Assembly: GCA_037308085.1 (NCBI GenBank)
Contig: CP147779.1
Span: 2,656,001-2,720,000, forward strand
Direction: 5' to 3'
Origin: Promethearchaeati archaeon SRVP18_Atabeyarchaeia-1
Lineage (GTDB): Archaea; Asgardarchaeota; Atabeyarchaeia; Atabeyarchaeales; Atabeyarchaeaceae
Length of the DNA stretch: 64,000 nucleotides
Both the position numbers and the translations under genes were made by a program. A model generated the notes under the pieces. The model saw only the letters and a list, made by a program, of their open reading frames with translations, had not been told where the DNA came from and ran no database searches. Positions 43,774-58,582 of this stretch are shown in pieces. Position 1 is the stretch's first letter. The number at the start of each line of letters is the position of its first letter.

Positions 43774-44513
43774 GGCATCTAGCTCTCACACCTACAAATT
43801 TAAGCTTATGTTTTGACTCCTTGAAGAAGATTCATACCTTTGAGCGCGGCGACAACCCCACGACCGCTTGGAACGACGGCATCGAATCAAGAATAAGAAG
43901 AGGGAGATTTCGGTCATTCCTGCCCGTCCTGCTGCTACCGATGCTCTTCTTGGACTTTGCCCTGAGAGTATCTTGAGGTTACAGTCTGCCAGAACTACGA
44001 GATCTTTATAAGGAAGAGAAGCGGACATATGTAGAACTCATCAGGTCTCTGTATACTATTTGGGGAGGCTGTATATCTCATCCAACTTGTATACCCACGT
44101 GAAACAACGACTAGGGAATGGTGATTGAAGCTGATATCGAATAATAGAAAACAAAGGAGGTTTGCAGGAATGTGTAAAGATCTTGACGACGAGATCGTCT
44201 ACCTAGACGACTACGACGAAGATGTCAAAGAAGTCAAATCAGAAGCAGAACAGAAAGAACCGTCGATTGTTTTTTCGAAATGAAATCCGAAACGAATTTG
44301 CATTTCCCTGCTTTTACGCTGGAATGAAATCCGAACTGGATTTCGTGTTTTTCTGCATTTTGCCTGAACCTTCCCCTTCCTTGGCAACGGAACCACACCC
44401 TGTCGACCAAGTCATCATCGACCCGCAGTACTATGCCAAGCAACGAACTCGATAGAACTCGCGCTATCAGCGCGAAAAAAGAAGAGGGAATTGGGCAATC
44501 CCACGCTGGCCGT

Positions 44514-44672
44514 CTACATCTGGAAGCCTGTCTTGCCAGCACCCACATCGTCAGGGCAGTCTCAAGCTCCTCATGCTCCTCAGCATAATCGCTGACCTTG
44601 ATACCCCCCATCACAGCATCAATCGCCTACCTAAAAGCACGAGGACCAGCAGTAGAACGCTCGGGAGTAGGC
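44514..44672 (-). repeat. RLP last-exon copy 1 (degenerate)
   Basis: Encodes ...AFR*AIDAVMGGIKVSDYAEEHEELETALT...GFQM*; terminator-like T-tract at about 44474-44490. Confidence 0.9.
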
Positions 44673-44902
44673 CACACCTTGCACTGCATGATTATGGTTC
44701 GACGGCTCACCTTACGCAGTGTGGTTTACTTCTATTGAGACTCGTGTAACCACTTTTAGTTGCAGTGATGCAAGGAGAATGATTCGAAATATGAACCAGT
44801 GTGCCCCTCGTTGAGCTATCTCTGGATTTGCTTAACAAAAAAGAGGGATGGAAGCTCTGCAGGAAGGCCGATGCCACAACCGGGATGACGTCATGGTCTG
44901 TG

Positions 44903-45550
44903 CTATTTGCGCCTCATGTACATTAGGGCTGCTACGATCACAAGAAGGGCTGCTGCTCCCCCAGCAACCAATACAAGCGTCAGCGGTATGCCGCCCGACT
45001 CGATATAATATGAGTTCAGCGTGTAGTTTTCCGTTAATCCTGCTCCATTGTTGTATCTCCAAACGAGGAGGACGCCGGTGAGTTTGTCTATGTAAGCTAC
45101 GACGTTGATGTCCATGATTGTTCCATTGATGTAGTTGGCTGTCCAGTAGCGCCCAGCGATATGATAGTTGGAGACCGTTGAGTTGAATTTCCAGCCTCCT
45201 GAACTAGGATACGGTGCCTCTCCTGCCGTGATGTTCGCTGCTACGAATCGCCAAATGCCATATTGGTACACATTCACATCGAAGGTGCCCGAGTGAGTAT
45301 TGTTCACGGAACCTCCCGGGTTGTACTCGGTCTTCTCTAGTGTGAGTACTGAGCCGCTGACTGCGGTGACGCGAACCCTAATTGCGTTGATAGCAAAGCC
45401 CGCCGCACTATAGGCGTAATCGTAGTAGGCATTTGTTCCCACAACTGCTCCCGGCTTAGTGTAGTCTGCTGCGCGTGTTGGGGCAAAGCTTGAGGAAACG
45501 ACCAATAGAATCGACAATGCCACCAGCGCGCAGGCTATTCCCTTTCTCAA
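44903..45550 (-). CDS. secreted or surface protein with C-terminal membrane anchor (cassette cargo)
   Basis: Signal peptide, Tyr/Asn/Thr-rich body, TM segment plus RRK tail. Confidence 0.8.
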   Translation of the reverse strand: MRKGIACALVALSILLVVSSSFAPTRAADYTKPGAVVGTNAYYDYAYSAAGFAINAIRVRVTAVSGSVLTLEKTEYNPGGSVNNTHSGTFDVNVYQYGIWRFVAANITAGEAPYPSSGGWKFNSTVSNYHIAGRYWTANYINGTIMDINVVAYIDKLTGVLLVWRYNNGAGLTENYTLNSYYIESGGIPLTLVLVAGGAAALLVIVAALMYMRRK

Positions 45551-45771
45551 GTGTTGTTACTCTCCATCTTCTTTCCCTATTCGCCCCTTATTGATTGATT
45601 GAGTATGTATCGTTTCAGTATTTTAAGTTTGCATCGCGTCAGCTACGGCCCTCGAGGCTTCTGGATCGCAGCTTAGGGTCGCTTGACGTTTTTCCCAGTC
45701 TCTTAAGCGCGCACGCTTACTAAGGCAAAAAGAAAAGTTGAGGAGAATCGAATTATTCTCCTTCAGCGCTC

Positions 45772-45805
45772 TTACATCTGGAAGCCTATTTTACCAGTAC
45801 CATCT
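45772..45805 (-). repeat. RLP last-exon copy 2 (short)
   Basis: GTGKIGFQM-TAA, followed by hairpin AGGAGAAT/ATTCTCCT and a T-tract. Confidence 0.75.
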
Positions 45806-45887
45806 TCACTCTGAAAAACGGAGCCGACGAGAACTCCACACCTTGAAGCAGCCAAAAACCAAATTAAAACTACTAAGATCTATTCTG

Positions 45888-46256
45888 CTATTTCTTCCTA
45901 TCCAAGTTTTCCTTAACTCTATAGCTCACTATTCTCTTTACTAGGTCAAATGGAATTGGCTTATTCATAGGAAATCTGACGGTACCTTTGCTTACTTCAT
46001 AATCAGACAACTCTTCTTTGAATGCCTCAATACCTGATGAAGTGGGATAAAACCCAATATGATTCTTAAAGGCTGCAAAATGAACCAAGTTACCATTTAA
46101 TTTGAAAGTAGGAATTTGATAACTGATTGCCTCTTCTGCTTTAGGCGCTGAGTCCCTAATTGCCTGCCTCAGCTCCTCCAAAATCCTCTGCACATTCTTA
46201 GGAAAAGTAGCAATATACTCATCTATCGTTTTGAACACTTTCCTAGGTGTTGCCAT
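45888..46256 (-). CDS. DUF1801 (YdhG-like) protein (cassette cargo)
   Basis: TIDEYI, ISYQIPTF and HIGFYP motifs; AT-rich. Confidence 0.88.
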   Translation of the reverse strand: MATPRKVFKTIDEYIATFPKNVQRILEELRQAIRDSAPKAEEAISYQIPTFKLNGNLVHFAAFKNHIGFYPTSSGIEAFKEELSDYEVSKGTVRFPMNKPIPFDLVKRIVSYRVKENLDRKK

Positions 46257-46386
46257 AGCGCTTCCCTGCAATCAATATTTCTTAGACGAAAAATCACCCA
46301 GAACCTAATGAGCACTCCGATTTAAAGACACAGATCCAATTCCAGCACGCGCATGCGCCATTTCACTCTGTTCGCTATATGCGGCC

Positions 46387-46671
46387 TCAGGCAACCTCAT
46401 GATAGAAGTTAACTTCGATGCCAGCCATAATCGGTCCGATATTCTTGAAAAACTCCTTATAGTATGGCGTCGAACCATGGTACTTCAAGGCTTCATCGCT
46501 CTCATATTTCTCAAAGATAAGGAATTGGTTCGGGTTTTTGACGTCTTGGTGGAGAACGTAGGCTATTGCACCAGGGTCTTTACGGACTTTGGGAGCAAGC
46601 TTACGGAACTCCCGCTCAAATTCCTCTCTCTTACCCTCAACTACCTTGATTACAGCCACTACAACAATCAT
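46387..46671 (-). CDS. putative quinol monooxygenase (ABM) protein (cassette cargo)
   Basis: DPGAIAY...FLIFEKYES...H pattern. Confidence 0.85.
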   Translation of the reverse strand: MIVVVAVIKVVEGKREEFEREFRKLAPKVRKDPGAIAYVLHQDVKNPNQFLIFEKYESDEALKYHGSTPYYKEFFKNIGPIMAGIEVNFYHEVA

Positions 46672-47039
46672 GGCCTAAATACCTCCTCTCGGTGATGGCG
46701 ACAACAAAAGATGTACACCATTCAACATATCAAAATATCGAGAGGGGCCGTAAAATACTGGTTTGGACTTTGAAGCGTGGGCTATAATGGTTAGTGTTCA
46801 TAGGATGAAGCATTGGGCAGAAACCACCAAAAAAGAAGGTTGTAGGTCTATAGAATAGAAAATTGTGCCTATGGTCTCATCTACACAATTCGACCTTGAG
46901 TCATAATTCCATCCCATCCCCTTAGGTCAAGAAATGCGACTATCTCAAATAAGATAAACAGGGATGAGTCTCTTGACAATGCCAGTGCGCCAGAAAAAAG
47001 AAAAAGAGAGAAGGATTTACCTACTACAGCTCGGTTCCC

Positions 47040-47193
47040 TCACATCTGGAAGCCTGTTCTACCACCGCCCCACTTCGTGAGGGCAGTCTTAAGCTCCGAA
47101 TGCTCCTCAGCATAGTCACTGACCTTAATACCCTGCATCACAGCATCAATAGCCTGCCGGAAAGCATGAGTATCAACCGCTGAACCATCTTGG
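47040..47193 (-). repeat. RLP last-exon copy 3
   Basis: In frame QDGSAVDTHAFRQAIDAVMQGIKVSDYAEEHSELKTALTKWGGGRTGFQM-TGA. Confidence 0.95.
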
Positions 47194-47376
47194 GGAGAGA
47201 GAGTTATTAGGGAATGACTCGCCTACCTACTGTGAACAGAAACTCAATCCATCCAAATGACATCTTGCAACGGACAAAGCCAGCTTCTAGTCTTGAATCG
47301 ATCGGAACGCGCAGAGTGAGCTTTAGCTGTGGGGAATCGCAGCCGGATACGACTAACCTGCGAGCGGGGTATTAGA

Positions 47377-47658
47377 ATGCAAGTGGAGGAGATACAGAAG
47401 AAGATTGCTCCCGCGCTAAGGCGTTACGGTGTGGCGAGAGCCGCGATCTTTGGCTCATACGCTAGGGGAGAAGAGAGAAAAGGAAGTGACATAGATATCC
47501 TCATCGAATTCGAAGGAGACAGGAGTCTACTCGATCTCGCCGGACTCAAGATCGAACTTGAGGAGGTCTTGGGAAGAAAGGTGGATGTCCTAACTTATGA
47601 CTCAATTCACCCTTTGCTTAGAGAGCGAATTCTGAATGAACAGAAGGTGATCCTATGA
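47377..47658 (+). CDS. MNT nucleotidyltransferase antitoxin
   Basis: [15 protein letters not shown] (GS-X10-DXD). Confidence 0.92.
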
Positions 47659-48023
47659 AGAAGGATCCACTAGTATTCGTTGATCACATTCTCGAAAGCA
47701 TAGAAACGATAGAGGAATACGTTCGAGGAACAACAAAAGAAGAGTTCATGAGTTCGAAGAAAACTCAAGACGCTGTGATTAGAAGAATCGAGATCATTGG
47801 AGAAGCTGCAAAGAACATTCCGGAAGACATGAAGAAAACCCATCCCAACATACCCTGGAAAAGAATAGCCGGAATGAGAGACATACTGATCCATGGATAC
47901 TTCGGCGTCGACTTGGGATTAACGTGGAAAGTTGCCAGCGAAGAGATCGAGGAATTGAAGAACAAGATTGCGAAGGTAAAGAAAGATCTCCAGAAAGCAC
48001 GAGAAAAGGTAGCCAAGCAATAG
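47655..48023 (+). CDS. HEPN (DUF86/HepT-like) RNase toxin
   Basis: EIIGEA and RDILIHGY (R-X4-H); overlaps the MNT gene by 4 nt. Confidence 0.92.
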
Positions 48024-48074
48024 CCCCAAAAAAGAAGAGAGAGAGAGGGATCTTCCTATTCCTTCTCGGTTCCC

Positions 48075-48193
48075 TCACATTTGGAAGCCCGTCTTACCCG
48101 TGCCCCACTTCGTCAGGGCAGTCTTAAGCTCCTCATGCTCCTCAGCATACTCACTAACCTTGACACCCTGCATCACAGCATCAATCACTTGCC
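48075..48193 (-). repeat. RLP last-exon copy 4
   Basis: QVIDAVMQGVKVSEYAEEHEELKTALTKWGTGKTGFQM-TGA. Confidence 0.95.
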
Positions 48194-48559
48194 CATGAGC
48201 CATTGTTCAACCCAGCAAGTTTTCAACCTTGCAGCGCCTCAAGAAAGGGAATTGAAGAAGTTGACTACAAGTTGGCTTCCTCTGAAGCATATTCCCAAAT
48301 GCAATGGAATACTTCTATCTTTGTGTCGGAGCCTGTAAGCCAATTATAGACAACATATCTCTAGCCGTGAAGACAGATTCGACCTTGCATTGGAACCATG
48401 CGATGTGCCCATTGTTTGCCACATACTTTGTTCGTTCTTTCAGCACTTCGAACAGCATCCCTTCTTCAACCTCGAATACGCTGTATGACATAGATCCATG
48501 ATCGTCCACAACAAAGAAAGACTCTCTTTCGTATGTCGGGTGCGGTTTTTGGGTTGGTC

Positions 48560-49567
48560 TTAGCTTCTAGCAGGCCCTTTTCCGATAACCCTCAGTTTCG
48601 TCGTAAGAGGTGTGAGCGGAAGTCGTCGTGCCTTGATGGGGCCTTCGGGAGGCTTGCGTGAGATTTTCGGCTTAACGTTGGTTGGGTACACCCGATATAT
48701 TCCGTCCTCAATGTCATTAGGTACTTTCCAGAACCACGTATAGCTGTCTTGTGCATCGATAGAGAAGTCTTCGTCTATTCTGAAGGTGAGAGCTTTGCTG
48801 AAGTCGTCCTCTGTGCTGATTCGTTTGTCCTGTCTCGCTACTGCCCACATGATGGTTCCCCTGCGGTACCATGCCGGAGCACTGCCTGAGTCAGCCAAGC
48901 TGGTCAGGGTTATGCCAACTTCGCCCCCAGCCTTGCATGTCAGCCGATCCATTGTCCAGTCTACGATCCCGTAATCGTATCCCGGATTTGATTGAAACGT
49001 GACCCCGAGAGCGCCGTACGCAAGAATTCCGAGAACGACGATCAAGACGTAGTCGGGATACAGAATCGCCCAACCCAAGATAAACACTCCAGCAATGAAA
49101 GCCCCATAAACGCAACTCACATACAGTTGCAGATGACCATGTTCATACTTTGATTTCATGAACCCGGTGAGCTTGAGGTTTAGGGCGCTCTCAATGAGAC
49201 TTGCTCGCGTTGCTGCTGCATCCGCACTAACTTGGTAGATATGATCAATCAAGTGAAGCGCGATAATGAGTATCACAGTGACGGCCAGGACAGCTGCCTT
49301 AACGATATCTGGCAATACCGTGCCGATTGTCCCCGTCGGGATGAGTACGGACTCTGTTGCCAAGAGTGCTGTGATGAAGCTGAAGCCATATTTCCTCAAA
49401 CCATTCAGGCGTTCCTCGAAGCCATCAATCACTTCTCGTGCTGCCTTCCATTCCATTATGAGGTTGTTATTACTGTCTTCTCCTTTGTCAGTACCCGCGC
49501 TTCCCCCCTCCTTCACCGTTCTGATAAACTTCAGTGGAAGCACTGAGTACAGGCTACTATTTAGCAT
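48560..49567 (-). CDS. hypothetical membrane protein (cassette cargo)
   Basis: 335-aa ORF, 4 TM segments then a beta-rich C-terminal domain. Confidence 0.65.
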   Translation of the reverse strand: MLNSSLYSVLPLKFIRTVKEGGSAGTDKGEDSNNNLIMEWKAAREVIDGFEERLNGLRKYGFSFITALLATESVLIPTGTIGTVLPDIVKAAVLAVTVILIIALHLIDHIYQVSADAAATRASLIESALNLKLTGFMKSKYEHGHLQLYVSCVYGAFIAGVFILGWAILYPDYVLIVVLGILAYGALGVTFQSNPGYDYGIVDWTMDRLTCKAGGEVGITLTSLADSGSAPAWYRRGTIMWAVARQDKRISTEDDFSKALTFRIDEDFSIDAQDSYTWFWKVPNDIEDGIYRVYPTNVKPKISRKPPEGPIKARRLPLTPLTTKLRVIGKGPARS

Positions 49568-49925
49568 TATTGGGCTCTACGCAGTGAGATGGGTAGCGAT
49601 GAGAGTCATGCGGATCAGCCTTTTAAGTCGATCTGCCCAAACGCGGAAACGGAGAATTTCGCAGACCTTTGCCTGATGTCATTGGCACACTACTATCAGA
49701 TTAGCGCACATGCCTCTTCCCTTCTCCTCCTTCTTTGTTCCGCATAACTGCGGTGGAACTACTGGATAGGAGGCGCAATTTAGCGTTATTGGGCGGTGAA
49801 GGTGGGAGGTCATCGCAGCTACCCCCGCACTTTTCTCCCACCCTGTTTTTTGGCGCGCGCCAACTCCGTCCGTCTAGTAAGACTGCCAAATCAAGAAAGG
49901 GGAACGGAAATTCATTTATTCCCGA

Positions 49926-50062
49926 CTACATCTGGAAACCAGTTCTGCCACCGCCCCACTTAGTCAGAGCAGTCTTCCCAAGCTCCTCATGCTCCCCAGC
50001 ACATCCATTGACCTTGATGCACTGCATCACAACATCAATAGCCTGACGAAATGCACGAGCAC
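49926..50062 (-). repeat. RLP last-exon copy 5
   Basis: ARAFRQAIDVVMQCIKVNGCAGEHEELGKTALTKWGGGRTGFQM-TAG. Confidence 0.93.
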
Positions 50063-50207
50063 TGAGGGCAAATGGCTGCCCATAATCCGCCTGTCATTGG
50101 ACGCGCGCACACTCTAGGGCGAAAAATGCCAACGGGAGAAGCGGTATAAAGGCGTTTGACGTAAGCCTCCTATGACGTATTCATCCTGAGGTGGGAGCGC
50201 AGAGAAG

Positions 50208-50600
50208 ATGGATCGTAGCAAAGACTGGATGGATGAAGCTGAAAGCGATCTTGATCACGCAAGAAGCGATCTCAAGCAAGGATTTAACAATTGGGCATGT
50301 TTCTCTACCCAGCAGTCTGCCGAGAAAGCCGTCAAAGCAGTATTCCAGAAAATGCACGCCGAGGCATGGGGCCACTCGGTAGCGGATCTTCTCACAGAAT
50401 TGTCAAAGAAACACAAAATCCCAAATGAACTTCAGGACAAGGCACTCGAACTCGACAAAGCGTACATACCAACTAGGTATCCTAATGCCCATCCATCGGG
50501 ATCCCCAAGAAGCAGATATACAAAAGACGAAGCAAGAAGGCTGATTAGCAATGCAGAGGAAGTACTCCGGTTCTGCAAAGATCTTCTATCCAAAGTATAG
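50208..50600 (+). CDS. HEPN domain protein
   Basis: WACFSTQQSAEKAVKA, GHS and AYIPTRYP motifs. Confidence 0.92.
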   Translation: MDRSKDWMDEAESDLDHARSDLKQGFNNWACFSTQQSAEKAVKAVFQKMHAEAWGHSVADLLTELSKKHKIPNELQDKALELDKAYIPTRYPNAHPSGSPRSRYTKDEARRLISNAEEVLRFCKDLLSKV

Positions 50601-50913
50601 CCGTGATGACTTACTGGAACTACTGAAGCTAAAAGTGGAAGCCCTTAAGAGAGTTCTCCAAGTATCCCTCGTCGCCTTATTTGGCTCATACGCAACAAAC
50701 TCCTACACCGCTGCGAGTGACATTGATTTACTCGTCGTCTACAAAGGACATGCCAAGGACGCTTATACAACAGTGAGGAAAGCATTTGGACTCCCTCTAT
50801 TGGAGCCTCATGTGTATTCCGAAGAAGAGTACACCACAATGAAAGAGACTCTTCACAAAATGACTGCTAATAGTATCACCATCTATTCAGATGGTAGCCT
50901 TCCACAGGGCTAG
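50551..50913 (+). CDS. MNT nucleotidyltransferase
   Basis: LFGSYATNSYTAASDIDL. Confidence 0.9.
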   Translation: MQRKYSGSAKIFYPKYSRDDLLELLKLKVEALKRVLQVSLVALFGSYATNSYTAASDIDLLVVYKGHAKDAYTTVRKAFGLPLLEPHVYSEEEYTTMKETLHKMTANSITIYSDGSLPQG

Positions 50914-51043
50914 CAGACGAGAAAAGTGAATGAGTCGGAAAGAAAATCTCCCAGTCCGACCTGCCGCTATTCTATCCAACCAAGCGCACGCCACGACTCT
51001 TCAAATACAAAAGGGCAAGTTCTTTGACTCCCTTCTCTACCAT

Positions 51044-51176
51044 TCACATCCGGATACCTGTCTTACTAGCATCCTAATTCGCCAAAGCAGTCTTCAACTC
51101 CTTATGCTCCCCAGCATAATCACTGACCTTGATGCCCTGCATCACAACATCAATAGCTCGCCTGAGAGCGCCAGCA
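51044..51176 (-). repeat. RLP last-exon copy 6 (degenerate)
   Basis: RRAIDVVMQGIKVSDYAGEHKELKTAL... ending ATG TGA. Confidence 0.88.
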
Positions 51177-52182: not shown

Positions 52183-52237
52183 GACCGCAAACCACCAAGG
52201 AAAAGCAGAGGGAGTTTGGCGAGTGCCCCAATGCCGC

Positions 52238-52330
52238 CTACAAATGGAAGCCTATCCTACCGGCACCCGCTTGGTCAAAGCAGTCTCAAGCTCCACATGC
52301 TCCTCAGCATACTCGACCAGCTTGATGCAC
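52238..52330 (-). repeat. RLP last-exon copy 7 (degenerate)
   Basis: IKLVEYAEEHVELETALTK...GFHL-TAG. Confidence 0.85.
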
Positions 52331-52369
52331 AGTGACAAGCGACCTTCAATTCCTTCCAAGGTCTACATG

Positions 52370-52816
52370 CTATTCATCCTCGTACTCCTCTTCTTCAACC
52401 TCCAAGTCAAGACCAAGCGTCCCAAGCTCCTCTATAGCCTCCCTTTTCGGCACATCCTTCGTGAAGTCTATATCATAGAGACCTCCATAAGCACTCCAAC
52501 CCCTCCCGATAAGGATCCTCAAGGTCTTAGCACAATCCTTGAGCCTGGAATGCAGTTCCTCTCCAAGCTTCTCCAACTCAACGGCGAAATCCTCGCCAAG
52601 CTCCTCACCCTCCAAACCGTCAAGCTCCCAAGCAGGCTTGCCAAACAAGGAAAGCATAACCCTACTAAACTTCCCAGCACCATCGCTATTGCCCACACAG
52701 ATCACCATCCAACTAGTGCTCCCAGCCTCGGCTTTAAAGACCACACCAGAAGGAAGAACCACTGTCGCCTCCCCACAAGGAGAGACAAATACAGATCTTT
52801 CTGGATGATGGATCAC
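52370..52816 (-). CDS. hypothetical acidic protein (cassette cargo)
   Basis: 148-aa ORF filling the space between repeat copies 7 and 8. Confidence 0.55.
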   Translation of the reverse strand: MIHHPERSVFVSPCGEATVVLPSGVVFKAEAGSTSWMVICVGNSDGAGKFSRVMLSLFGKPAWELDGLEGEELGEDFAVELEKLGEELHSRLKDCAKTLRILIGRGWSAYGGLYDIDFTKDVPKREAIEELGTLGLDLEVEEEEYEDE

Positions 52817-52873
52817 CGCACCAATGACGCAAAAAAAAGTGGAGTGGAGAACTCATGATTCTCCCCCAATTCT

Positions 52874-56060: not shown

Positions 56061-56173
56061 AGTAACGAAGGGCGTATGGCATTCAACTCCATGACGTTGA
56101 GTGGCAGTACTATTTCGCCGATCTGTCTTTTATTCCCTACGCACGCGGGGAAACCAGTCCACACTTGATCTTA

Positions 56174-56215
56174 CTACATCTGAAACCCTGCCCTAGCACC
56201 GCTCCACTTGGTGAG
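56174..56215 (-). repeat. RLP last-exon copy 9
   Basis: LTKWSGARAGFQM-TAG, about 80 bp after the real gene's stop. Confidence 0.85.
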
Positions 56216-56294: not shown

Positions 56295-57664
56295 TCACAT
56301 TTGGAAACCTGTTCTGCCGCCGCCCCACTTAGTGAGAGCAGTCTTCAGCTCCTCATGTTCCTCAGCGTAGTCACTGACCTTGATACCCTGCATCACCGCA
56401 TCAATCGCTTGCCTAAAGGCTCTTGCACCAGCAGCTGGACCGTCCGGGTGAGCGTGGACTACGGGTCCATCAATTAAAGATGGACTTTCCGCCTCCGGAC
56501 CCGATCATGATGTTGTTGCCGAGCATTTTCATGGTTTTCTCCACGTGGCCGGCAGTAATACCACCGCTTGGCATAGGCATCGTCGGCTTGATATGCTGCA
56601 AAGGAAACTGTAATCGCTTCGCCATCATCAAAAATTTGTCCTCAAGCAACGGAGCTTTGCCGTAGGGCGCCGGAACCAGGGCTATATCGGTCCCACATAT
56701 GCGCGGTAGCTTGGACATTATGAGAGACGGGGATACTCCCGTTATTGGACTATAGCTGATTTCGCCAGCCTCTTCAGCCGTGTGCGCCGGCTATGTCCAT
56801 ATGCCCCATTATTGGCAATGTGTTTGGTTCTTCTGCTACCATGCGTAGGGCGTCGTATCCGACTGCGAGGTAGTTGATGAGTAGGGCGTTTCCGCCTGCC
56901 TGTTTGACTTTGTCGGCGTTTTCGAGTAGTTTGTCTACTGGGCCGGTTATGTTGCAGCAGTAGAGTGTCTTTTCATCTTTTTCTTTGTTTGCTTTTTCTG
57001 CTTTTTCCATGTAGAGTGGGACGCGGTCTTCTATTTTGTTGTATGCTGGGTTGGCGATGATTTCGTCGTCTTTTATACAGTCAGTTCCGCCTACTGCGGC
57101 GCCGTAGAAGAGTTCTGCGCCTACTTCGGGCGTGTAACCCGTCTTGGGTTTTATCATATTATTCAGGAGTGGCCGTTTGGGTATGTCCATGAGGTCTCTT
57201 ATTCCTTGGAGTCCGTGTTTGGGTCCTTTGAATCCTTTGAGCCATTGTTTGGGGAACCATAGGTCCATGAGTTTGATTCTTCCGCCCATGCTGAGGTTGC
57301 CGATGACTGTGCTGAGTAGCATGGGGATTTCTGTGCCGAAGTTTTCCCATGGGAAGCCTACTGCGATGATGAAGTTGCGGTGGTCTACTTCCTTTGGGAC
57401 GGAGTAGACGTATTCGGGTGTTTCCCAGATGCCGAGTACTTTTGCTTGTCGCTTGATTTTGAGTTCTACTGTTTCGCCTGGGACTGGGGTCCAGGTGCCT
57501 GTGCTTTGTTCTAGGGCTGCCATTTCTGCTACGTCAGTTATTGGTAGTGCGGGGTTGAGTCCTGCGAAGTAGAATCCGATGACGTATTTGTCTGTGTCGA
57601 GGCCGTCGAAGAATCCTTGGGGTTGGGCTTCTATGGGTATTTCGTTTGGTTTTTCTTCAGACAA
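56295..57664 (-). CDS. RuBisCO-like protein (form IV), 439 aa after splicing; exons 57664-56782, 56759-56487, 56458-56295
   Basis: EQSTGTW, IKPKTG, IKDDE, PMPSGG. It has HMD and PAPYGK where true RuBisCO has HRA and the H327 region, indicating an RLP. 1370 nt minus 22 minus 28 = 1320 nt, an open frame. Confidence 0.88.
56459..56486 (-). other. 28-nt bulge-helix-bulge pre-mRNA intron (intron 2)
   Basis: GCGG-AA^A-GUCCAUC-UUUAAUU-GAUGGAC-CCGU-AG^U; removal gives GGA GGC GGA AUC CAC GCU CAC CCG GAC (GGGIHAHPD). Confidence 0.85.
56760..56781 (-). other. 22-nt relaxed bulge-helix-bulge pre-mRNA intron (intron 1)
   Basis: AUAGCCG-GCGC-AC^A-CGGCU-GAAGA-GGCUG-GCGA-AA^U-CAGCUAU; removal gives GCC GGC GCA CUC AGC UAU (AGALSY) in frame. 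Confidence 0.78.
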
Positions 57665-57675
57665 TTTTCGGGTTG

Positions 57676-57744
57676 ACCTCCTTTCGTTTCTTGGTTTTTG
57701 TTAGAATTGGTTGTTGGTTTTAGAGTCTTCCGCATCGATATAAA
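57676..57744 (-). promoter_or_regulatory. TATA box and RBS of the RLP gene
   Basis: Minus-strand TTTATA at 57744-57739 and GGAGGT at 57681-57676 before TTG 57664. Confidence 0.55.
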
Positions 57745-57821
57745 CGTGATGGGGAGACTTCAATGACAGTCGATTCCCTTGTTTTCCGCAGGGGCATATG
57801 CTCTTTGGGGGCGTTGCTACA

Positions 57822-58280
57822 TCAATGGATCATTTGCTCCTTGATGGTGGTTGCGAGGATGGCGTCAAGGTTGTCTGGAGTCTTGCCTGCGTAGCCGATG
57901 GATGCAATGGGCTTGATCCTTGTTAGTGCCATGAGTGCTTCTATCCTTTTGATGATAAACTTGTATTTATCTGGGTCTGCTGAGTTTGCGAATGTGATGA
58001 GCTTCTTGCCGTTCAGGTCCATTTTGAAGAGCTTCTTTGTGTTCCTTCTGAGTAGCTTGGGTGCTCGGCATTCCTCGGCGCCGTGGCACTTCGTGCATGT
58101 GAGGCATGGTGCTCCGAGGGCGATTATGCTGTAGTCGCGTATGGATTGAGATTCCTTGAACTGCTTGTCTTGGAAGAGGGAGACATTCGTTCCGAGGTCT
58201 TCTAGACGGTTCCTGATCTTTTCTGCAAGGAGCTTCGTGTCACTGTTGTCCGTGTGATAAATGACTAGTGCTCTTGGCAT
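57822..58280 (-). CDS. flavodoxin-like protein
   Basis: ALVIYHT...TKLLAEKI and IIALGAP, with an extra CxxCxxCxxxxxC insert. Confidence 0.6.
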   Translation of the reverse strand: MPRALVIYHTDNSDTKLLAEKIRNRLEDLGTNVSLFQDKQFKESQSIRDYSIIALGAPCLTCTKCHGAEECRAPKLLRRNTKKLFKMDLNGKKLITFANSADPDKYKFIIKRIEALMALTRIKPIASIGYAGKTPDNLDAILATTIKEQMIH

Positions 58281-58582
58281 TTCTTTGGGCCCCTATGAGG
58301 TAAGTCTAGGTGGGGTTGGCTGTTCAACTATGGTGGTGAGCGCTTTAACTAGGTTTGTCAGTGCACTTTGAATAGCAGAAGCTCTGGTTTGTCATATGTC
58401 TTCCGACCCTCCTCTAGGCTTTCGATCTTGCGGTAGACGCCTACGGCAGCGGGTTTTTCGGTTATGCTGCATTTGTTAGAAAACTATTTTAGATAGATAG
58501 CAGAGGTATTTTAGATAAAAAGCAGAACTGATTTAGATAAAGGCAGAAACGTTTCAATTCATCGTAGGAGGATTGAGAAGTC

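What the first reader, a model, noticed from the sequence alone, without database searches (positions are those of the whole stretch)
56295..57664. RuBisCO-like gene split by two tRNA-type (bulge-helix-bulge) micro-introns
Seen: the gene is broken into three frames, and each break is a short insert containing an in-frame UGA and a hairpin. Both inserts fold as BHB-type motifs (3-nt bulge, 4-nt central helix, 3-nt bulge). Cutting after the 2nd nucleotide of each bulge removes 22 nt (56760-56781) and 28 nt (56459-56486). This restores one 439-aa ORF with family-like junctions HMDIAGALSYSP and GSGGGIHAHPDG. Established: the archaeal splicing endonuclease cuts BHB motifs at that position, and archaeal protein-coding introns are rare, best known from crenarchaeal cbf5. 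Inference: this is a functional two-intron metabolic gene that pipelines would call a pseudogene. Both motifs are relaxed (intron 1 has a G-A in the central helix; intron 2 has an interrupted outer helix), implying a broad-specificity EndA.
Basis: partly seen in the sequence, partly recalled or inferred. Interest (0 to 1): 0.95.

Follow-up and report, generated by a model that had tools for sequence, protein, structure and literature searches.

The report
tRNA-type micro-introns split an Asgard RuBisCO-like gene
A RuBisCO-like gene of the Asgard archaeon Atabeyarchaeia-1 is broken by two tiny inserts shaped like tRNA introns; close relatives carry or lack such inserts at four positions while the protein stays under strong selection, so the inserts are almost certainly cut out of the mRNA, although spliced RNA has not been seen.

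Summary
The minus-strand gene at 57664..56295 lies in three frames. Removing 56760-56781 (22 nt) and 56459-56486 (28 nt) gives a 439-aa form IV RuBisCO-like protein.

The intron reading is strongly supported by comparison, not by RNA.
- Three close relatives carry inserts at four positions in this gene. Each fits bulge-helix-bulge (BHB) geometry, and its predicted cuts restore the frame.
- Atabeyarchaeia-2 lacks exactly the 22 nt. Metagenome relative L030 lacks exactly the 28 nt and reads GSGGGIHAHPDG uninterrupted.
- After in-silico splicing, all four genes give gap-free 439-aa proteins. dN/dS is 0.02-0.09 downstream of the inserts, including between lineages that share intron 2.
- The intron 2 stem shows two compensatory pair changes.
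- Runs from another study carry both inserts.
- The genome has two EndA paralogues and RtcB. I confirmed BHB-shaped inserts in cbf5, pcm and ahcY.

The caveats:
- The only RNA-library contig, from a relative, retains intron 2.
- Both motifs are relaxed.

The gene's 3' end is also an integration hotspot with stacked 3'-end remnants. First-stage notes had already flagged this gene's 22-nt insert and similar inserts elsewhere in this genome. I found no paper on BHB introns in Asgard mRNAs.

The parts
57677..57681 (-). Shine-Dalgarno-like GGAGG, 12 nt upstream of the TTG start
   Evidence: Read directly from the sequence. It is conserved in G002, L030 and L031.
56782..57664 (-). Exon 1: TTG start at 57664-57662, residues 1-294 plus the first base of codon 295. 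It holds the RuBisCO N-terminal domain and the first half of the catalytic barrel, with the KPK and KDDE motifs.
56760..56781 (-). Intron 1: 22 nt, phase 1, in-frame TGA. 5' bulge ACA at 56783-56781. Central helix 56787-56784 with 56765-56762. Inner helix 56780-56777 with 56769-56766. 3' bulge AAU at 56761-56759. Outer helix 56794-56788 with 56758-56752.
   Evidence: These 22 nt are absent from G002, L030 and L031. They are present in DNA contigs of runs X2 and X4.
56487..56759 (-). Exon 2: 273 nt, completing codon 295 and running to codon 386 (...IMIGSGGG).
   Evidence: dN/dS is 0.07-0.09.
56459..56486 (-). Intron 2: 28 nt, phase 1, in-frame TGA. Central helix 56492-56489 with 56464-56461. 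5' bulge AAA at 56488-56486. 7-bp inner helix 56485-56479 with 56471-56465. 3' cut after AG at 56460-56459.
   Evidence: It is conserved in G002 and L031 with two compensatory pair changes. It is absent from L030, which reads GSGGGIHAHPDG.
56295..56458 (-). Exon 3: the last 54 codons plus the TGA stop at 56297-56295.
   Evidence: dN/dS is 0.02-0.09 at dS 0.4-3.
56172..56215 (-). Remnant of an older copy of the gene's 3' end (reads ...LTKWSGARAGFQM*), just downstream of the current stop codon.
   Evidence: Read and aligned.
44475..51163 (-). Five more same-orientation copies of the gene's last 120-180 nt plus terminator, at 44475-44652, 47037-47158, 48072-48193, 49928-50062 and 51040-51163. They separate small gene cassettes that include three nucleotidyltransferase/HEPN (MNT-HepT) toxin-antitoxin pairs. 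This is context, not part of the introns.

Best explanation
The locus is one functional gene for a 439-aa form IV RuBisCO-like protein in the Asgard archaeon Atabeyarchaeia-1. Two tRNA-type micro-introns interrupt it.

Inferred mechanism:
- The primary transcript folds locally into relaxed bulge-helix-bulge motifs, built partly from exon and partly from intron sequence.
- The two-paralogue (alpha-beta)2-type splicing endonuclease EndA cuts after the second base of each bulge.
- RtcB joins the exons. This removes 22 and 28 nt and restores the frame at DIAGA^LSYSP and GSGGG^IHAHP.

History of the introns:
- Intron 2 is old. Three of the four sampled lineages share it, and the fourth has lost it precisely.
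- Intron 1 is a lineage-specific gain.
- Relatives carry their own introns of 31 and 33 nt at two other positions nearby.

Shown here: the anatomy, the presence/absence pattern, purifying selection on all exons, stem covariation, and the presence of the enzyme genes. Inferred: that cleavage and ligation actually happen, and that EndA is the enzyme.
For: 1. Exact indels. G002 (Atabeyarchaeia-2, CP147780.1) lacks exactly the 22 nt and reads MDIAGAWSYSPITG. L030 lacks exactly the 28 nt and reads GSGGGIHAHPDG.

2. More inserts in the same gene. L030 has a 31-nt insert 21 nt downstream of the G000 intron 1 site (BHB score 10; junction SYSPI^TGVSPSLIMSK). L031 has a 33-nt insert with an in-frame TAA about 20 nt upstream (central helix 4 of 4; junction PIMA^HMDIAGAW). 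The background rate of such motifs is 7.7e-4 to 9e-4 per cut-site pair. Allowing about 10 placements per insert, that is roughly 1e-2 per insert and below 1e-6 jointly.

3. Selection. All four spliced genes give 439 aa with no gaps. dN/dS is 0.07-0.09 between the intron sites and 0.02-0.09 after intron 2. This holds among G000, G002 and L031, which all carry intron 2 (19-22 synonymous against 7-8 non-synonymous changes).

4. Intron 2 structure. Of the cells in the central and inner helices, 97% pair, against 27-39% when the partner strand is slid by 1-3 columns. Two inner-helix pairs change on both sides, and one G-U becomes G-C.

5. Profile fit. The three pieces abut in the RuBisCO-like protein profile, at positions 265/269 and 356/357.

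6. Real DNA. Both inserts are present in runs of another study.

7. Machinery and setting. The genome has two EndA paralogues and RtcB. ARAGORN finds only 22 tRNA genes, most of them interrupted. Published work reports introns in 92-95% of tRNA genes, many at non-canonical positions (PMC11291895).

8. Same kind of insert in other genes.
- cbf5: 41 nt, score 11, junction GHGGTL^DPRVTG, shared with G002.
- ahcY: 34 nt, score 11, G000 only; the G002 ORF is continuous and 95% identical across the junction.
- pcm: 28 nt, shared with G002.
- A radical-SAM gene in G002 only: 53 nt, score 12, junction CNLTCP^WCQN.

Against: - No spliced RNA was seen. The one RNA-library contig covering intron 2 comes from a G002/L031-like relative in a 1.67-Mb metatranscriptome. 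It retains the 28 nt with no gap (X19 record 5). This could be pre-mRNA or carried-over DNA.
- Both motifs are non-canonical. Intron 1 needs a G.A mismatch in the central helix, and its minimum-free-energy fold prefers a 3-bp helix whose cut would not restore the frame.
- The outer helix of intron 2 is weak and is not conserved between G000 and G002.
- With only three sequences, the covariation shuffle test is not significant (107 of 500).
- My de novo genome-wide scan for BHB motifs that join ORFs could not be separated from background (345 hits against about 302 for decoys). I have no full census.
- An intact form III RuBisCO paralogue exists, so loss of this gene would not remove the only family member.
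Confidence: 0.8

Rival explanations
1. Translational recoding: the mRNA is not spliced, and ribosomes shift +1 or hop across each insert. Both G000 inserts are open in the downstream exon's frame, so a +1 shift would give a full-length protein with 7-9 extra residues at each site.
For: Both inserts are 3n+1 long and end the upstream frame at a TGA. The downstream frame is open through them. The RNA-library contig is unspliced. Purifying selection on the downstream exons fits this reading too.
Against: - No slippery or RF2-type shift site is visible.
- The extra residues would fall inside the GGG-IHAHP phosphate-binding loop. Relatives without the inserts show no such residues.
- The 33-nt insert in L031 is a multiple of 3 long and has an in-frame TAA, so one shift cannot rescue it.
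- All junctions split a codon (phase 1 or 2), which codon-to-codon hopping cannot explain.
- Four different sequences at four sites share only the BHB geometry.
- The stem of intron 2 covaries.
Confidence: 0.07
2. Decaying pseudogene: the inserts are insertion scars, for example from recombination with mobile elements that target the gene's 3' end. The three pieces are no longer translated as one protein.
For: - The gene's 3' end is a recombination hotspot, with 6-7 stacked 3'-end remnants.
- Codon style changes in the last third of the gene, and in G000 it changes right at intron 1.
- An intact form III paralogue exists.
- Intron 1 is private to G000, so dN/dS cannot speak to it alone.
Against: - dN/dS is 0.05-0.06 in exon 3 among the three lineages that all carry intron 2, at dS of about 1. 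Selection therefore acted while the frame-breaking insert was in place.
- There are no other stops or frameshifts in any of the four genes, and all are exactly 439 codons after BHB removal.
- The inserts have precise BHB geometry.
- Essential genes (cbf5, ahcY) carry the same kind of insert.
Confidence: 0.05
3. Split gene product: the pieces are translated separately and assemble. Alternatively, only the 296-aa N-terminal piece is functional.
For: The first ORF is long (296 aa) and has a good ribosome-binding site.
Against: - Exons 2 and 3 have no start codon or ribosome-binding site at their beginnings.
- The break positions differ between close relatives.
- Exon 3 (54 aa) and exon 2 (91 aa) carry active-site loops of a single TIM barrel and are under strong selection.
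Confidence: 0.04
4. Assembly or sequencing artefact, or DNA-level heterogeneity in which the inserts are absent from the real genome.
For: None found.
Against: The genome is a closed contig. Logan contigs of other runs (X2, X4) carry both inserts with 0-3 differences. Homologous inserts occur in G002 and L031.
Confidence: 0.01

Closest known systems
BHB intron of the crenarchaeal cbf5 pre-mRNA (Aeropyrum, Sulfolobus; PMC2738675)
   Same: A short intron in a protein-coding gene, bounded by a bulge-helix-bulge motif built from exon plus intron sequence. Removal by the tRNA splicing endonuclease and ligase is expected. Its presence is patchy among relatives. The cbf5 gene of this genome also has a 41-nt BHB insert at the catalytic GGTL^DP motif.
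   Different: The host here is a metabolic gene for a RuBisCO-like protein, not an RNA-modification gene. There are two introns in one gene, and four positions among four close relatives. The sizes are very small (22-33 nt). The organism is an Asgard archaeon rather than a crenarchaeon. Splicing has not been shown experimentally here.
Non-canonical and multiple tRNA introns of Atabeyarchaeia and Freyarchaeia (PMC11291895; bioRxiv 10.64898/2026.10.13.758758)
   Same: Same genomes and same size range: a 21-nt intron that differs between Atabeyarchaeia-1 and -2 is described there. Same BHB geometry, same rapid lineage-specific gain and loss, and the same presumed (alpha-beta)2 EndA.
   Different: Those introns lie in tRNA genes, where the exon half of the motif comes from tRNA structure. 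Here the exon half is coding sequence, and excision must be exact to the base to keep the reading frame. I found no mention of mRNA introns in these two papers (term searches).
Form IV RuBisCO-like proteins (MtnW/DK-MTP-1-P enolase type, NF007095/TIGR03332)
   Same: Best family-level match. The KPK and KDDE motifs, the K334-equivalent GK, the SGG motif and the GGGxHxHP motif are all kept.
   Different: Each piece scores below the curated cut-offs. R295, H298 and H327 are replaced by M, A and L/A, so it is not a carboxylase. Its substrate is unknown.
Programmed +1 frameshifting (prfB) and translational bypassing (T4 gene 60)
   Same: A stop codon directly after the break, with a hairpin in the gap.
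   Different: There is no slippery site and no matched take-off and landing codons. The junctions fall within codons. One relative's insert is a multiple of 3 long and carries a stop codon.

Membership tests
Archaeal BHB (hBHBh') intron, substrate of EndA | A 4-bp central helix flanked by two 3-nt bulges on opposite strands | tested here: met
   Intron 2: central helix GCGG/CCGU 4 of 4, and a 5' bulge AAA that also appears in the minimum-free-energy fold. The central helix is all Watson-Crick in G002 and L031. The 3' site lies in a 1x2 internal loop in G000 and a 6-nt bulge in G002, so the form is relaxed (bulge-helix-loop-like).
Archaeal BHB (hBHBh') intron, substrate of EndA | The same geometry for intron 1 | tested here: inconclusive
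   Bulges ACA and AAU fit, with central helix GCGC/GCGA 3 of 4 (G.A mismatch) and a strong outer helix (6 of 7, extendable). However, the minimum-free-energy fold pairs G-U to give a 3-bp helix, and that register would not restore the frame. The score of 10 out of 12 occurs at 7.7e-4 of random pairs.
Archaeal BHB (hBHBh') intron, substrate of EndA | Cutting after the second base of each bulge yields a functional mature RNA | tested here: met
   Both cuts restore one 439-aa ORF. The junctions match the sequences of relatives that lack the inserts.
Archaeal BHB (hBHBh') intron, substrate of EndA | The structure is conserved by compensatory change | tested here: met
   Intron 2: 2 of 7 inner-helix pairs change on both sides and 97% of cells pair. 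The test is weak because only three sequences are available.
Archaeal BHB (hBHBh') intron, substrate of EndA | A splicing endonuclease able to cut relaxed motifs, and an RtcB ligase, are encoded | tested here: met
   There are two PF01974 genes (C1:202619-202873 and C1:624258-624518) and an RtcB gene (C1:1025457-1026764). The subunit type is inferred from the gene count and from bioRxiv 10.64898/2026.10.13.758758. No enzyme assay was done.
Archaeal BHB (hBHBh') intron, substrate of EndA | Spliced RNA or excised intron observed | tested here: inconclusive
   Only one small RNA library held the locus. Its contig, from a relative, retains intron 2. No raw RNA reads were available.
RuBisCO large-subunit superfamily, form IV (RuBisCO-like protein) | RuBisCO_large and RuBisCO_large_N domains, with substituted carboxylase residues | tested here: met
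   Pfam hits on all three pieces. The best NCBIfam hit is the MtnW-type RuBisCO-like protein model. K175, K177, K201, D203 and E204 are kept. R295, H298 and H327 are replaced when compared with the genome's own form III paralogue.
Pseudogene | Relaxed selection (dN/dS near 1) and further disabling mutations downstream of the first break | tested here: not met
   dN/dS is 0.02-0.09 downstream, and there are no further stops or indels in any of the four genes.
Programmed ribosomal frameshift or bypass | A conserved shift or take-off site, with a product colinear with homologues | tested here: not met
   No shared shift motif was found. The L031 insert is a multiple of 3 long and has a TAA. The junctions split codons.

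The most novel reading that the evidence does not exclude
Atabeyarchaeia are a lineage in which tRNA-type BHB introns are actively colonising protein-coding genes and being precisely lost from them.
- One 1.3-kb gene shows four intron positions among four relatives whose synonymous divergence (dS) in exon 1 is about 0.4-0.7.
- One of those relatives has lost an old intron exactly, which suggests a spliced-RNA template.
- At least four other genes carry such inserts (cbf5, pcm, ahcY and a radical-SAM gene).
This would give a living prokaryotic model of mRNA intron gain and loss in the closest archaeal relatives of eukaryotes.
Probability: 0.6. Interest if true: 0.9.

Novelty: new member of a known kind. 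Interest (0 to 1): 0.8.

Why it matters
- BHB introns in archaeal protein-coding genes are best known from crenarchaeal cbf5. This would be a metabolic gene with two of them, in an Asgard archaeon, with intron positions turning over between close relatives.
- It shows that the tRNA splicing machinery can maintain reading frames in mRNAs.
- It bears on how intervening sequences spread into coding genes before or apart from the spliceosome.
- It has a practical consequence: gene callers and metabolic reconstructions of intron-rich Asgard genomes miss or mislabel such genes. The published reconstruction counts one RbcL per Atabeyarchaeia genome.
- The predicted junctions are directly testable with the metatranscriptomes that already exist for this site.

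Tried and rejected
- De novo genome-wide scan for BHB motifs whose removal joins long ORFs. I ran it without and with a codon-usage coding filter and a no-start-codon filter. True cut positions gave 345 hits and shifted-cut decoys about 302. Adjacent same-strand genes swamp the signal, so I dropped it as a census.
- tblastn of intact ORFs of one genome against the other, looking for two abutting alignments. It gave 19 candidates. My placement windows were too wide for per-site significance, and only the radical-SAM insert in G002 (score 12, decoy p = 0) stood out.
- Matching junction peptides between the two genomes to find shared introns. It returned 412 pairs, mostly conserved gene boundaries with conserved chance motifs. 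Not usable.
- blastn indel mapping of G000 against G002. My first gap settings gave no parsable output, and genome-wide identity is only about 70-75%.
- The genome-contig scan found only G002. ARAGORN found no tRNA in the window.
- RIO2 kinase lead from the first-stage notes. At its proposed junction the central helix pairs only 2 of 4 by my reading of the sequence, so I did not count it.
- A 22-nt diverged tandem duplication or recombination junction as the origin of intron 1. I considered this because codon style changes exactly there. G002, L030 and L031 show the same 3'-third codon shift without that insert, so the shift does not explain the insert.
- T4 gene 60-type hopping across intron 2, using the AGTCCA direct repeat. 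The period is 26 nt and gives the wrong frame (read).
- The RNA contig X19 covered only 7 of 30 bins. Nothing can be said about the uncovered parts.
Full report
**What is there.** On the minus strand, a TTG at 57664 preceded by GGAGG opens a 296-aa frame. It ends ...IMGHMDIAGAHG* at a TGA. Homology continues in a second frame (...ISYSPITGVSPSLIMSKLPR...IMIGSGGGKSIFN*) and then in a third (...HAHPDGPAAGARAFRQ...GFQM*).

All three pieces match Pfam RuBisCO_large. In NCBIfam they match the MtnW-type RuBisCO-like protein model collinearly, at profile positions 17-265, 269-356 and 357-403. Nothing is therefore missing or extra at the joints once the inserts are ignored.

Aligned to the genome's own intact form III RuBisCO (C1:187.7-189.0 kb), the protein keeps the KPK and KDDE motifs, the GK, the SGG and the GGGxHxHP motifs. 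It replaces R295, H298 and H327. It is therefore a form IV RuBisCO-like protein, not a carboxylase.

**Organism.** The window lies in a closed 2.81-Mb genome. Its nearest relative in the reference set is CP147780.1, Candidatus Atabeyarchaeum deiterrae Atabeyarchaeia-2. tRNA coordinates in the supplement of PMC11291895 for "Atabeyarchaeota_1" coincide with ARAGORN hits in this genome, for example tRNA-Ala at 448068-448144. So this is the Atabeyarchaeia-1 Asgard genome.

That paper reports introns in 92-95% of tRNA genes, many at non-canonical positions and often several per gene. It lists one RbcL per Atabeyarchaeia genome, so the gene studied here went unnoticed. A 2026 preprint describes repeated recent tRNA-intron gains that differ between Atabeyarchaeia-1 and -2, and two EndA paralogues in most Asgard genomes. 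I found no mention of mRNA introns in these papers, and two literature searches found no paper on BHB introns in Asgard mRNAs.

**Structure.**
- an outer helix AUAGCCG/CAGCUAU (6 of 7 paired, extendable)
- a central helix GCGC/GCGA (3 of 4, with a G.A mismatch)
- bulges ACA and AAU
- an inner helix CGGC/GCUG.

RNAfold finds the same helices but pairs G-U, so the central helix is 3 bp. That register would remove 21 nt, so the frame-restoring cut needs the 4-position register.

Intron 2 has a clean central helix (GCGG/CCGU), a 5' bulge AAA and a 7-bp inner helix in the minimum-free-energy fold. Its 3' cut site sits in a 1x2 internal loop, and the outer helix is weak.

I scored BHB geometry out of 12: pairs in the central helix, the first four inner-helix pairs, and the first four outer-helix pairs. 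Both introns score 10. Such scores occur at 7.7e-4 of random cut-site pairs of the same lengths in this genome.

**Comparative evidence.** This is the core of the case.
- G002 is 89% identical in protein. It lacks exactly the 22 nt (MDIAGAWSYSPITG) but carries a homologous 28-nt insert at site 2.
- Metagenome relative L030 lacks the 28 nt exactly and reads GSGGGIHAHPDG, which is the predicted spliced junction. It has its own 31-nt insert 21 nt downstream of the G000 intron 1 site.
- Metagenome relative L031 carries intron 2. It also has its own 33-nt insert, with an in-frame TAA, about 20 nt upstream of the G000 intron 1 site.
- Both private inserts fit the BHB template, and their predicted cuts restore the consensus protein (SYSPI^TGVSPSLIMSK and PIMA^HMDIAGAW).

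This makes four insert positions in one gene among four close relatives. The inserts share only the geometry. Allowing about ten placements per insert, the joint chance of such motifs at the frame-restoring positions is below 1e-6.

After in-silico BHB splicing, all four genes encode 439 residues and align without a gap. dN/dS values:

| Segment | dN/dS |
|---|---|
| Exon 1 | 0.07-0.16 |
| Between the intron sites | 0.07-0.09 |
| After intron 2 | 0.02-0.09 |

Synonymous divergence (dS) is 0.4-3.

G000, G002 and L031 all carry homologous copies of intron 2. L030 groups with L031 by synonymous distance. Intron 2 is therefore most simply ancestral, and L030 has lost it exactly. The 19-22 synonymous against 7-8 non-synonymous differences in exon 3 among the three carriers arose while the frame-breaking insert was present. 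That rules out a dead gene. It requires a mechanism that restores the frame.

The central and inner helices of intron 2 pair in 97% of cells, against 27-39% when the partner strand is slid by 1-3 columns. Two inner-helix pairs change on both sides (U-A to C-G, and C-G to U-A, with G002 as a C.A intermediate). With three sequences the shuffle control is not significant, so this counts as supporting evidence only.

**Reality of the DNA.** Contigs from runs of another study cover both inserts with 0-3 differences and no gaps (X2 records 7 and 9; X4 record 15). A more abundant relative in X4 lacks 22 nt at site 1 and keeps site 2, as G002 does.

**Machinery and precedent in the same genome.** Two EndA-family genes and RtcB are present. 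First-stage notes of this scan pointed to other interrupted protein genes, and I checked them myself:
- cbf5 has a 41-nt insert (score 11) that restores GHGGTL^DPRVTG. It is split at the same residue in G002.
- pcm has a 28-nt insert with a CGCC/GGCG central helix, also shared with G002.
- ahcY has a 34-nt insert (score 11) that restores GHPS^EVMDMSF. G002 has an uninterrupted ORF there, 95% identical across the junction.
- G002 has a 53-nt insert with a perfect score of 12 in a radical-SAM gene (CNLTCP^WCQN), where G000 is uninterrupted.

cbf5 and ahcY are housekeeping genes, so this lineage must remove such inserts.

**Evidence against, and limits.** The only RNA library holding the locus is a very small metatranscriptome. 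Its contigs come from a G002/L031-like relative, and one of them spans intron 2 unspliced. It may be pre-mRNA or DNA carry-over. Contigs also drop minority forms. Still, it is the only RNA datum, and it does not show splicing.

Both motifs are relaxed. The register of intron 1 depends on tolerating a G.A mismatch. My attempts at an unbiased genome-wide census failed against background, so I cannot say how many mRNA introns the genome has.

**Rivals.**
- A +1 frameshift would also give a full-length product, because both inserts are open in the downstream frame. It would place 7-9 residues inside conserved loops that insert-free relatives do not have. It cannot rescue L031's 33-nt insert, which is a multiple of 3 long and contains a stop. 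It also does not explain the shared BHB geometry or the stem covariation.
- A pseudogene is excluded by selection.
- Separately translated pieces lack start signals, and the break points move between relatives.
- An artefact is excluded by the reads from other runs.

**Context noticed.** The last 120-180 nt of the gene plus its terminator recur five more times in the same orientation between 44.4 and 51.2 kb. There is also a short remnant right after the stop codon, and one copy elsewhere in the genome. Between the copies lie small cassettes, including three nucleotidyltransferase/HEPN toxin-antitoxin pairs. This looks like serial integration of elements at the gene's 3' end, each bringing its own copy of that end.

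It may also explain why the last third of the gene uses ordinary codons, while exon 1 and the upstream flavodoxin-like gene use almost only A- or C-ending codons. This feature is separate from the introns.

**Verdict.** The intron interpretation is the best-supported explanation (about 0.8). It is a new case of the rare class of BHB pre-mRNA introns. It is unusual in having two introns in a metabolic gene, very small sizes, an Asgard host and visible gain and loss among close relatives. Direct RNA evidence is the missing piece.

Noticed in passing
window 44475-44652, 47037-47158, 48072-48193, 49928-50062, 51040-51163, 56172-56215 (all minus strand); genome C1:1709986-1710067: The last 120-180 nt of the RuBisCO-like gene plus its T-rich terminator are repeated 6-7 times in the same orientation at 76-87% identity, and several copies are degenerate. 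They separate small cassettes: three MNT/HepT or HEPN/NT toxin-antitoxin pairs, ABM and DUF1801 proteins, and proteins with no Pfam match. I saw no integrase among the ten ORFs scanned between 43 and 52 kb. It looks like stacked att-type remnants from serial integration at the gene's 3' end, or an integron-like cassette array.
   Followed up: partly
window 56780-58400 compared with 56295-56750: Exon 1 and the upstream flavodoxin-like gene (57822-58280, minus strand) use almost only A- or C-ending codons (coding strand A 36%, T 14.5%; AT skew -0.4 to -0.5 on the plus strand). The last third of the gene uses ordinary codons. G002, L030 and L031 show the same shift, but starting about 70-110 nt further downstream than in G000. 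In G000 it starts exactly at intron 1.
   Followed up: partly
genome C1:383798-383838 (cbf5), C1:305604-305631 (pcm), C1:488226-488259 (ahcY): Other protein-coding genes of the same genome carry BHB-shaped, frame-breaking inserts whose removal restores conserved motifs (GGTL^DPRVTG, SAPH^MVI, GHPS^EVMDMSF). The cbf5 and pcm inserts are shared with Atabeyarchaeia-2. The ahcY insert is absent there.
   Followed up: yes
G002 (CP147780.1) 919007-919059, minus strand: Atabeyarchaeia-2 has a 53-nt insert with a perfect BHB score (12 of 12) inside the CxxxCxxC motif of a radical-SAM gene (CNLTCP^WCQN). The Atabeyarchaeia-1 orthologue is uninterrupted.
   Followed up: partly
L030 3403-3433; L031 1904-1936: Metagenome relatives (Ga0315309_1000590 and Ga0315308_1027607) carry private 31-nt and 33-nt BHB-shaped inserts. 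These lie within about 45 nt of the G000 intron 1 site, which makes the region a local hotspot for insertion in this gene.
   Followed up: yes
whole genome G000: ARAGORN detects only 22 tRNA genes in a 2.8-Mb genome estimated 97% complete. Most of them have introns, and some calls are spurious with very long introns. This fits the published finding that most tRNA genes here are multiply interrupted and escape standard finders.
   Followed up: no
window 52223-52858: This stretch has very strong C over G skew on the plus strand (GC skew down to -0.43), with overlapping ORFs on both strands and no assigned function.
   Followed up: no
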